DNA of 64,000 bases from the human T2T-CHM13v2.0 reference genome, Homo sapiens, in the NCBI RefSeq assembly GCF_009914755.1, contig NC_060928.1. One strand, written 5' to 3'. A program made the position numbers and the translations under genes. Below, piece after piece: positions 30,414 to 32,132 of the stretch. How positions within the stretch are numbered: position 1 is the first letter of the stretch; each line of letters starts with the position of its first letter. The notes beneath the pieces are model-generated. The model was not told the origin of the DNA and made no database searches. It worked only from the letters and a program-made list of their open reading frames with translations.

Positions 30414-30773
30414 ATGTAAACTTGTCAAATGAGATTGAAGGAAGGAGTATTTCACTGAACAAAGTTGGGATGTTGTTTCCATGAAAGAGTGAAGGATTCT
30501 GGCTAGTCTATCACAATAGGTAGTAGGTAATCATTTATTGATAGATTAATCTGGATCATTTAAATTTGGGCTATCATTTGGATTTATCAAACCCTCAGCA
30601 GAATCTGTTGAGAAGATAAAGCATCACATTCACCTTCATTCAGTCAATATGGACTAAGAATGCCTGAGAAAGCAGGTCTGTTCAGAAGCTTTAGTATTAA
30701 CGCCTTGTTTTCAAGTCTAAACTAACCGTAAGAAAGTTACCCATGGACACATGCAGCACTCTTGTTTTCTCTC

Positions 30774-31181
30774 TTTTTTTTTTTTTTTTCCTGAGATGGA
30801 GTCTTGCTCTGTCACCCAGGCTGGAGTGCAATGATGTCATCTCAGTTCACTGCACCCTCCTCCTCCAGGGTTCAAGTGATTCTCCTGCCTCAGCCTCCCG
30901 AGTAGCTGGGATTACAGGTACACACCACCATGCCCAGCTAATATTTGCATTTTTAGTAGAGATGGAGTTTCACCATGTTGGCCAGGCTGGTCTCTAACTC
31001 CTGACCTCACATGATCCACTCACCTCAGCCTTCCAAAGTTCTGGATTACAGGCGTGAGCCACTGCTCCTGGCCTGATAAATGTAAATATTATCCCTTATC
31101 AAACTTAGAATTAAAGTTCAGAAAATCCTGTTGCCAGAGATTTTAAGGTTGGGAAATTAAGATCATATATGGCGCCCGGCC
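30774..31181 (-). mobile_element. AluS with a 93-bp foreign insert near its 5' end
   Basis: Alu body 30774-31073; insert 31074-31166; residual Alu start GCGCCCGGCC 31172-31181; TSD TCTTGTTT(T)CTCT on both outer flanks. Confidence 0.93.
31074..31166. repeat. 93-bp dispersed inverted repeat, copy of 49284-49376
   Basis: Manual alignment to the reverse complement of 49284-49376 gives 91/93 identity. Confidence 0.95.
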
Positions 31182-32132
31182 TCTTGTTTCTCTTTAATCA
31201 ATTATCTAGATAAGTGTTACCTCTTTAGCTAGTCTTTTGGGGCAGAATCTGGTTTACTCTTCTTTGTGCAGCAGCCTTCGGGACCTTGTTCATTGTGGTG
31301 TCCAACCATGCCATTGAATGAAGATAGAAAGTAGAGGTCTCTAGATTCCCTGCTTTAAATGGGTAGCAAGCAGCACAGTGCAAGGCTGGGGACAGGACAT
31401 GACATTTCTTCTAATAAGTTCCACCATTTTTGATAGTTTGCTGTAGGGTAAATGAGCTCTCCTTTGCTCTTCCTTCAGGCCAATTGCCTTGGAAAGAAAG
31501 ACATTTATTTCTGACCTTAAGGCGTCATTACCCGGAGCTGACAGGGCTTGTGGGAACAACCTAGCTTCTCTCCTTTGTGCAGCAATCTCTGAGGTTCCAA
31601 TTTCCCATTCACTGGTTAAATCCCAACTCTGGGTTAACTGCACCTATTAATTTGTAGACAAAAATAACAGTTAAGTAGCAGGAAGGGAACATGCCCTTAA
31701 GGGAATACCCAATGCTGTGCTGGAATCTCACCAGGACCACCTGCATCCATTTGAAAACATTTTTTACCAGCACAGGAAGAATTTTCTGCAAACGTCTGTG
31801 TTTGTGAAGCTTGTTTACCTCAGCTGGAAATTGCAGCAGATCGCAATTTGAAGACTGTTTACTTTTTTTCCCCTAAATCATACTCAGTGTAATTATTGGG
31901 ATCCAGATTTTGCTGTTGTTGTTTGAAAATGGTGAGAAGGAAACTTGGATTGGATTCAGGCTTCTGAGACCTGGATTAAATAGGATAGGTGTGATTCCAA
32001 ATAATTTTTGGAAGGCGAGAACTCACCTGGAACAGTTCCATGATTTGAGTCCCTCAGGGTGAAGTATTTTCCTCCTGCTTTGGGAGGGCTACTCCTACTC
32101 CAAGTACAGTGTCTTGTTAAGAATGATGACCC

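What the first reader, a model, noticed from the sequence alone, without database searches (positions are those of the whole stretch)
30760..31195. Alu-guided templated insertion: 93 bp of unique DNA copied, inverted, from an Alu flank 18 kb away
Seen: 31074-31166 is the reverse complement of 49284-49376 with only 2 transitions (91/93), and both copies abut an Alu 5' end at the same position. The Alu at 49377 is native there, because it has its own TSD (ATTT[A/G]CATTTATC), and the copied segment includes that TSD's left copy. The Alu at 30774 has two 5' ends: body, then the 93-bp insert, a 5-nt filler (ATATG), a residual Alu start (GCGCCCGGCC, 31172-31181), and finally its own TSD (TCTTGTTT(T)CTCT). 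The two Alu bodies differ much more than the 93-bp copies do. Inference: a break near the 5' end of the 31-kb Alu invaded the oppositely oriented 49-kb Alu, synthesis ran out into its unique flank, and the end rejoined non-homologously (one-ended SDSA/gene conversion), well after both Alus inserted. An alternative is a template switch during retrotransposition of a 5'-extended transcript.
Basis: partly seen in the sequence, partly recalled or inferred. Interest (0 to 1): 0.8.

Follow-up and report, generated by a model that had tools for sequence, protein, structure and literature searches.

The report
Alu-primed copy of a neighbour's flank
Ninety-three bases of unique DNA lying just upstream of one old Alu repeat were copied, inverted, into the head of another Alu 18 kb away, most likely as a scar of DNA-break repair, and it has no evident function.

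Summary
Window 31074-31166 is the reverse complement of 49284-49376, 91 of 93 bases. These are the only two places for the 93-mer in the whole assembly. The donor's 477-base flank is otherwise unique.

The copy sits in register against position 1 of an antisense Alu. It is followed by 5 filler bases, a second 10-base Alu start and that Alu's own target-site duplication.

The two Alu bodies are only 85.6% alike. They show no conversion tract. Divergence steps up right at the Alu/flank junction.

The copy is younger than the recipient Alu. Its rate ratio is 0.18, 95% CI 0.02-0.76, and the conditional binomial p is 0.0067. This argues against an origin at retrotransposition.

Best reading: a break between Alu positions 10 and 11, priming on the inverted neighbour Alu, synthesis out into its flank, then end joining. 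A replicative template switch fits nearly as well. An RNA template cannot be excluded.

This is a natural example of a known repair outcome, neutral and intergenic. No primate or pangenome check was possible. Interest is moderate to low.

The parts
30760..30772 (-). Target-site duplication of the recipient Alu, on its poly(A) side
   Evidence: Matches 31182-31193 with one 1-nt indel.
30774..30789 (-). A-tail of the recipient Alu, seen as a run of 16 T on the + strand
   Evidence: Read directly.
30790..31073 (-). Body of the recipient Alu, complete from position 1 (at 31073) to its 3' end. It is old.
   Evidence: 14/228 non-CpG and 12/48 CpG-column differences from a 33-Alu consensus. Best non-self genome hits are 88-89%. 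It is 85.6% identical to the donor Alu.
31064..31073 (-). Inner copy of Alu positions 1-10. It is either copied from the donor or a duplicate of the native start.
   Evidence: Differs at 2 of 10 positions from the donor Alu's start and at 2 of 10 from the outer copy.
31074..31166 (-). The 93-nt templated copy of the donor's 5' flank
   Evidence: 91/93 against the reverse complement of 49284-49376. Only two places in the genome.
31167..31171 (.). 5-nt filler at the junction that has no homology
   Evidence: Matches neither the donor's next bases nor Alu position 11 onward. With the preceding 3 nt it forms an 8-nt palindrome.
31172..31181 (-). Outer copy of Alu positions 1-10, directly against the target-site duplication. 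Read as the original 5' end of the recipient Alu.
   Evidence: Read directly. Both of its CpGs are intact, a state seen in 3 of 35 compared Alus.
31182..31193 (-). Target-site duplication of the recipient Alu, on its 5' side
   Evidence: Matches 30760-30772.
49284..49376 (+). Donor segment: unique 5' flank of the donor Alu, including the left half of its target-site duplication (49363-49375) and one extra A (49376)
49377..49666 (+). Body of the donor Alu, inverted relative to the recipient. It supplies the homology that set the register.
49710..49722 (+). Right half of the donor Alu's target-site duplication. It shows the donor Alu is native at this site.
   Evidence: 12/13 match to 49363-49375.

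Best explanation
This is a repair scar. It was made long after both Alus had inserted.

Proposed steps:
1. The recipient Alu, antisense at 30790-31181 before the event, suffered a double-strand break between its positions 10 and 11.
2. The 3' end carrying the Alu body paired with the nearby, oppositely oriented Alu at 49377.
3. That end was extended along the donor through Alu positions 10 to 1 and on for 93 nt into the donor's unique upstream flank. It stopped 2 nt short of a T8 run.
4. The extended end came off the donor.

The net gain is 108 nt, no recipient sequence was lost, and the donor is unchanged.

Shown: the anatomy, the uniqueness, the donor direction, the in-register junction and the younger age of the copy.

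Inferred: the break and its position, DNA rather than RNA as the template, and strand displacement followed by end joining.
For: 1. Outer positions 1-10 plus the inner body from position 11 make one complete Alu. It is bounded by one target-site duplication and one A-tail. Classical insertion followed by a clean later interruption therefore explains the two 5' ends with no loss of sequence.

2. The junction is in register. The copy meets Alu position 1 in both loci, and positions 9-19 are identical in the two Alus, which offers a priming site.

3. The far junction has filler and no homology.

4. The copy is younger than both Alus.
- Copy: 1.08% per lineage.
- Recipient Alu: 6.1% non-CpG divergence, p = 0.0067.
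- Donor Alu: 7.9% non-CpG divergence, p = 0.0009.
- After composition correction, P(<=2) is 0.008 and 0.002.

5. No conversion tract is seen inside the Alu, as expected if the invading strand kept its own sequence.
- The donor Alu ranks 4th of 14 in similarity over positions 1-20 and 1-40, and 7th of 14 over the right arm.
- Divergence is 2/93 in the flank against 6/40 in Alu positions 1-40, Fisher p = 0.009.

6. The template lies 18 kb away in cis, among over 4,900 Alu-like candidates genome-wide. This fits templating that depends on proximity. One paper passage says Alu gene conversion acts within about 10 kb (PMC8230782).
Against: - The 10 bases that this model says were copied from the donor differ from today's donor at 2 positions, a 1-nt indel and an A/T difference. 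The next 93 bases show only 2 differences. This needs later mutation at a former CpG and in a short run, or low-fidelity early synthesis.
- The outer 10-nt Alu start keeps both CpGs intact, which only 3 of 35 compared Alus do. This is mildly odd for a 5' end as old as the body.
- Nearer inverted Alus existed, with + strand copies at about 36.5, 39.2 and 40.5 kb, yet the one at 49 kb was used.
- The dating rests on 2 substitutions and on equal neutral rates. The consensus was built partly from hits chosen for similarity to this Alu.
- No outgroup genome or second human assembly was available.
Confidence: 0.45

Rival explanations
1. Replicative template switch (FoSTeS/MMBIR type). A nascent strand that had just copied the recipient Alu to its position 1 left its template and annealed to the inverted Alu 18 kb away. 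It copied 93 nt of that Alu's flank, then returned to the original template 10 nt behind where it had left. This duplicated Alu positions 1-10.
For: - The anatomy fits equally well. There is an inverted templated insertion from kb range, and a homeologous Alu at one junction.
- With this model no donor-derived Alu bases are needed. The abrupt rise in divergence exactly at Alu position 1 and the missing conversion tract then need no extra mutations on the donor side.
- Templated insertions of 7 to over 13,000 bp at junctions, some in Alus, are described for this mechanism (PMC5120786 passages; PMC7407515 passages).
Against: - The two copies of positions 1-10 would have been identical at the event, yet they now differ at 2 of 10 positions, one a transversion.
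- The return junction has a 5-nt filler rather than microhomology.
- No other copy-number change or further switch is seen nearby.
Confidence: 0.25
2. RNA-templated patch at a break (class 2 templated sequence insertion). A transcript running through the donor flank into the donor Alu was used as the template. The broken recipient Alu primed on it, a reverse transcriptase extended it, and end joining closed the gap.
For: - Class 2 insertions lack their own target-site duplication and poly(A), and show filler and microhomology at their junctions (PMC5110952 passages). That description fits the insert itself.
- Sequence alone cannot tell an RNA template from a DNA one.
Against: - No gene is annotated in the window (hub note), and Alu's own polymerase III transcript would not contain the upstream flank (established knowledge).
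- Experimental insertions of this class came from 18 of 24 chromosomes without preference (PMC5110952 passage). Here the donor is 18 kb away in cis.
Confidence: 0.1
3. Origin at retrotransposition. While the 31-kb Alu was being inserted, the LINE-1 reverse transcriptase switched from the Alu RNA to a 5'-extended transcript of the 49-kb locus. It then switched again to the first 10 nt of an Alu RNA.
For: - One target-site duplication and one A-tail bound the whole composite.
- Chimeras in the sense orientation made by template switching are documented for LINE-1 (PMC13174262 passages).
- The intact CpGs of the outer 10 nt (3 of 35 Alus) would be no harder to explain.
Against: - The copy is several-fold younger than the Alu body: rate ratio 0.18, CI 0.02-0.76, p = 0.0067, with 8.7 differences expected and 2 seen.
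- The body is not a copy of the donor Alu (85.6%), which rules out simple 5' transduction.
- This model needs two switches and an internal entry at Alu position 10.
Confidence: 0.07
4. Assembly artefact or a private somatic or cell-line change in the sequenced sample.
For: Only one assembly could be examined.
Against: - The two copies differ by 2 substitutions, and the inner and outer Alu starts have diverged. This implies age rather than a recent artefact.
- The junctions lie in ordinary, non-satellite sequence.
Confidence: 0.03

Closest known systems
Coupled homologous and non-homologous repair of one double-strand break: one end invades, synthesis runs past the homology, and end joining closes the gap (Richardson and Jasin, Mol Cell Biol 2000)
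   Same: One junction lies in register inside shared homology. The copied tract runs out into donor-unique DNA. The other junction has no homology and carries filler. The donor is unchanged.
   Different: That work used engineered breaks in cultured mammalian cells. This case is a fixed germline event between two diverged (85.6%) Alus in inverted orientation. I saw the paper only as an entry in the reference list of PMC5389663. It is not held, so its content is recalled.
FoSTeS/MMBIR templated insertions and Alu/Alu-mediated rearrangements at pathogenic copy-number junctions
   Same: Short to long templated insertions copied from nearby sequence, often inverted, with Alus at the junctions (PMC5120786 passages; PMC7407515 passages).
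   Different: Those events come with large copy-number changes and are ascertained through disease. This one is an isolated 108-nt gain with no other rearrangement in 264 kb, and it is old.
Non-allelic gene conversion between neighbouring Alus
   Same: Exchange between Alus in cis at kb range. The range is about 10 kb according to a passage in PMC8230782.
   Different: Conversion replaces Alu sequence with Alu sequence. Here no replaced tract can be detected inside the Alu, and it is the donor's unique flank that was added.
Class 2 templated sequence insertion polymorphisms
   Same: A patch templated elsewhere fills a break and shows end-joining features (PMC5110952 passages).
   Different: Those patches are thought to derive from RNA and come from anywhere in the genome. 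This one is 18 kb away, and homology set one of its junctions.
LINE-1 chimeric insertions and 5' transduction
   Same: Extra sense-oriented sequence at the 5' side of a retroelement, inside its target-site duplication (PMC13174262 passages).
   Different: The extra sequence is younger than the element, and the element is not a copy of the Alu that adjoins the donor flank.

Membership tests
Coupled homologous/non-homologous break repair (SDSA closed by end joining) | One junction in register within sequence shared by donor and recipient | tested here: met
   The copy abuts Alu position 1 in both loci. Positions 9-19 are identical.
Coupled homologous/non-homologous break repair (SDSA closed by end joining) | The copied tract extends beyond the homology into donor-unique DNA | tested here: met
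   93 nt of flank that is unique in the genome.
Coupled homologous/non-homologous break repair (SDSA closed by end joining) | Second junction without homology, with end-joining marks | tested here: met
   5-nt filler and no microhomology.
Coupled homologous/non-homologous break repair (SDSA closed by end joining) | Donor left unchanged | tested here: met
   The donor flank is continuous, and the donor Alu keeps both halves of its target-site duplication.
Coupled homologous/non-homologous break repair (SDSA closed by end joining) | Started by a two-ended break rather than at a replication fork | not testable with these tools
   Sequence alone does not separate the two.
FoSTeS/MMBIR template switching | Templated insertion from nearby sequence, with microhomology or homeology at the switch points | tested here: inconclusive
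   Met at the Alu junction. The return junction shows filler instead.
FoSTeS/MMBIR template switching | Accompanying copy-number gains or further switches | tested here: not met
   Apart from the 10-nt duplication, no other two-copy segment is tied to this site in 264 kb.
Non-allelic Alu-Alu gene conversion | A stretch of the recipient Alu replaced by the donor's variants | tested here: not met
   The donor Alu ranks 4th of 14 over positions 1-20 and 1-40, ties for first at 53/61 over 1-60, scores 113/126 against 111/126 for the runner-up over 1-125, and ranks 7th of 14 over the right arm.
LINE-1-mediated chimera or 5' transduction | All parts inserted at one time | tested here: not met
   Rate ratio of copy to Alu is 0.18 (CI 0.02-0.76), p = 0.0067. 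This rests on 2 substitutions and on equal rates.
LINE-1-mediated chimera or 5' transduction | The element body is a copy of the source element next to the transduced flank | tested here: not met
   85.6% over 263 nt.
Class 2 templated sequence insertion | Patch derived from RNA | not testable with these tools
   No expression data. No gene is annotated in the window (hub note).

The most novel reading that the evidence does not exclude
Alu-primed flank capture may be a recurrent class of germline mutation that has not been catalogued. It would be a DNA-level counterpart of transduction that moves short unique sequences between neighbouring Alus. Its in-register junctions would leave datable fossils across primate genomes. 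Those fossils would record template choice, tract length and fidelity of ectopic repair synthesis in the germline.
Probability: 0.2. Interest if true: 0.6.

Novelty: new member of a known kind. Interest (0 to 1): 0.35.

Why it matters
This is a clean natural example in which both junctions, the donor and the relative age of an ectopic repair event can all be read from one haplotype. It shows that diverged Alus (about 86% alike, inverted, 18 kb apart) can prime synthesis that carries unique DNA to a new place.

The site itself has no evident consequence. It is intergenic, with no annotated gene or element at either locus.

Its value is as a search image. The signature is a unique flank in two copies, abutting a repeat in register at both sites. 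That signature could be scanned genome-wide to measure how often such events are fixed, and over what distances.

In the 200 kb next to the window, no second case was found.

Tried and rejected
- Multi-copy repeat: rejected. The 93-mer has 2 places in the genome, and the 477-nt donor flank is unique apart from its last 96 nt.
- Reverse direction, with the 31-kb locus as source: rejected. The donor flank is continuous, and the copy contains half of the donor Alu's target-site duplication.
- Simple 5' transduction or a segmental copy of flank plus Alu: rejected. The bodies are 85.6% alike.
- Recent retrocopy of some other old Alu: no support. The best non-self hits are 88-89%, although only 40 of 4920 candidates were scored.
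- Conversion tract inside the Alu: looked for and not found.
- A template for the filler: the longest recurring word across it is an 11-mer, found once in the window at 20781 on the other strand. That is about chance level given the number of words tried.
- The first survey filter missed the known case, because BLAST merged the copy with the Alu. It was replaced by a depth-based filter.
- A consensus built from the window's own 15 Alus carries decayed CpGs. It was used only for ranking.
- The Richardson and Jasin paper is not held.

Full report
**What is there.**
On the + strand the 31-kb locus reads as follows:
- a 13-nt target-site duplication (30760-30772);
- a run of 16 T (30774-30789);
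- an antisense Alu body that is complete down to its position 1 at 31073;
- 93 nt of non-Alu DNA (31074-31166);
- five bases, ATATG (31167-31171);
- ten bases that are again Alu positions 10 to 1 (31172-31181);
- the matching target-site duplication (31182-31193, one 1-nt indel).

The 93 nt are the reverse complement of 49284-49376 at 91 of 93 positions. The two mismatches are transitions at 31106 and 31145. The repeat finder reports the same pair as 99-nt arms at 97%.

At 49 kb the segment is the immediate 5' flank of a sense-strand Alu that starts at 49377. That Alu has its own 13-nt target-site duplication (49363-49375 and 49710-49722, one A/G difference). The left half of this duplication lies inside the copied segment.

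**More than chance, and not a repeat family.**
The window's own assembly could be searched.
- The 93-mer gave two candidates, both scored, and they are these two loci (E 7.7e-40 and 4e-37).
- The 477 nt upstream of the donor Alu matched itself and, over its last 96 nt only, the 31-kb locus, even at E <= 10.
- The tool notes that very common words are skipped and that counts are lower bounds.

I also ran a small survey on the 200 kb upstream plus the window, 264 kb in total.
- It found 21 segments of at least 40 nt that are present exactly twice.
- Four of these are at least 90% identical. Two are local tandem duplications and one lies in low-copy repeat.
- Only the 93-mer has a high-copy repeat (depth about 21) against the same end in both copies.
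- Leaving out the window that was chosen for this finding, that is 0 further cases in 200 kb.

**Direction.**
The 49-kb locus is the source. There the segment continues upstream as unique DNA with no junction marks. The segment also holds half of a target-site duplication whose other half lies beyond the donor Alu's A-tail. At 31 kb the segment is bracketed by Alu pieces and filler.

**The Alu bodies are independent insertions.**
- They are 85.6% identical over 263 nt.
- The recipient's best non-self genome hits are 88-89%, and the donor's best is 91%. In each search 40 candidates were scored, out of 4920 and 1368. No near-identical source copy was seen.
- Among the 14 other full-length Alus of the window, I ranked each by similarity to the recipient Alu:

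| Alu positions | Rank of the donor Alu | Score |
|---|---|---|
| 1-20 | 4th of 14 | 17/20 |
| 1-40 | 4th of 14 | 35/41 |
| 1-60 | tied first | 53/61 |
| 1-125 | first | 113/126 (runner-up 111/126) |
| right arm | 7th of 14 | 118/156 |

No conversion tract can therefore be detected inside the Alu.
- Divergence jumps at the junction. It is 2/93 in the flank against 6/40 in Alu positions 1-40 (Fisher p = 0.009). Counting non-CpG sites only, it is 4/32 (p = 0.037).

**Age.**
The consensus was built from 33 Alus: 13 from the window and 20 genome hits fetched. CpG-prone columns were set aside.
- The recipient Alu has 14/228 non-CpG differences (6.1%). The donor Alu has 18/228 (7.9%), somewhat inflated by misalignment at its internal 8-nt duplication.
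- The 93-mer has 2 differences over two lineages, or 1.08% per lineage.
- The conditional binomial tests give p = 0.0067 and p = 0.0009.
- The 93-mer is 70% A+T and has no CpG. Correcting for this, 8.7 or 10.5 differences would be expected at equal age, with P(<=2) = 0.008 or 0.002.
- The rate ratio of copy to recipient Alu is 0.18, 95% CI 0.02-0.76.

Caveats:
- The estimate rests on two substitutions.
- Equal neutral rates are assumed.
- Subfamily differences count as mutations.
- The 20 genome hits were chosen by similarity to the recipient Alu, which if anything lowers its apparent divergence.

**Mechanism.**
The outer ten bases plus the body from position 11 make one complete Alu, with a single target-site duplication and a single A-tail. 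The simplest history is therefore an ordinary Alu insertion that was later interrupted between positions 10 and 11 with no loss of sequence.

I commit to the following (0.45):
1. A break occurred at that point.
2. The body-side 3' end paired with the inverted Alu at 49377. Positions 9-19 are identical in the two Alus.
3. Synthesis ran through donor positions 10 to 1 and then 93 nt of flank. It ended 2 nt before a T8 run (49274-49281).
4. The strand was released and joined to the other end with five filler bases.

Not everything fits this reading.
- The ten bases that it says came from the donor differ from today's donor at two positions (a 1-nt indel and A against T), while the next 93 show only two differences.
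- The outer ten bases keep both CpGs, which only 3 of 35 compared Alus do.

A replicative template switch with a 10-nt back-step (0.25) removes the first problem. It then needs two changes between the duplicated starts.

The remaining rivals rank lower.
- An RNA template (0.10) cannot be excluded from sequence. However, the donor lies in cis at 18 kb and no gene is annotated there.
- An origin at retrotransposition by double template switching (0.07) is disfavoured by the age test and by the 85.6% identity of the bodies.
- An artefact (0.03) is unlikely given the accumulated differences.

**Comparison with what is known.**
The anatomy matches coupled homologous and non-homologous break repair. 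I cite Richardson and Jasin 2000 from a reference list only. The paper is not held, so its content is recalled.

It also matches the templated insertions of FoSTeS/MMBIR junctions, some of which lie at Alus (PMC5120786 and PMC7407515 passages).

It differs from three other known kinds:
- Alu-Alu gene conversion (PMC8230782 passages), because no Alu tract was replaced.
- Class 2 templated sequence insertions (PMC5110952 passages), because here homology and proximity chose the template.
- LINE-1 chimeras (PMC13174262 passages), because of the difference in age.

My five literature searches turned up no description of this particular locus, and no catalogue of Alu-flank copies of this form. That is not proof that none exists. 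No supplements were read.

**Verdict.**
Its main inference is supported as far as one genome allows. It is a new example of a known kind of repair outcome, neutral in an intergenic region. The primate and pangenome comparisons that would settle timing and sub-mechanism could not be run here.

Noticed in passing
window 49667-49709: The donor Alu carries a pure run of 43 A, although its body is old (18/228 non-CpG differences). Old Alus usually have short or degraded tails (recalled), so the tail may have expanded by slippage.
   Followed up: no
window about 49633-49648: The donor Alu has an 8-nt internal tandem duplication near its 3' end. It is visible as a gap in the pairwise alignment.
   Followed up: no
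window 49274-49283: Copying from the donor stops 2 nt short of a T8 run. This may be where synthesis fell off.
   Followed up: partly
window 31164-31171: The last 3 nt of the copy plus the 5-nt filler form an 8-nt palindrome. An 11-mer across the filler recurs once at 20781 on the other strand, which is about chance level.
   Followed up: partly
L026:4534-8818 and L041:1490-5775: An inverted pair of 4.3 kb at 97.5% identity, about 147 kb apart, upstream of the window. It could be young LINE-1 copies or a segmental duplication.
   Followed up: no
L041:641-918 and L042:5313-5484: Two local tandem duplications: 136 nt at 100% with period 142, and 79 nt at 97.5% with period 93.
   Followed up: no
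window 9063-9177 and 22197-22312: An inverted pair of 116 nt at 91% that is not Alu. It is probably another interspersed repeat family.
   Followed up: no
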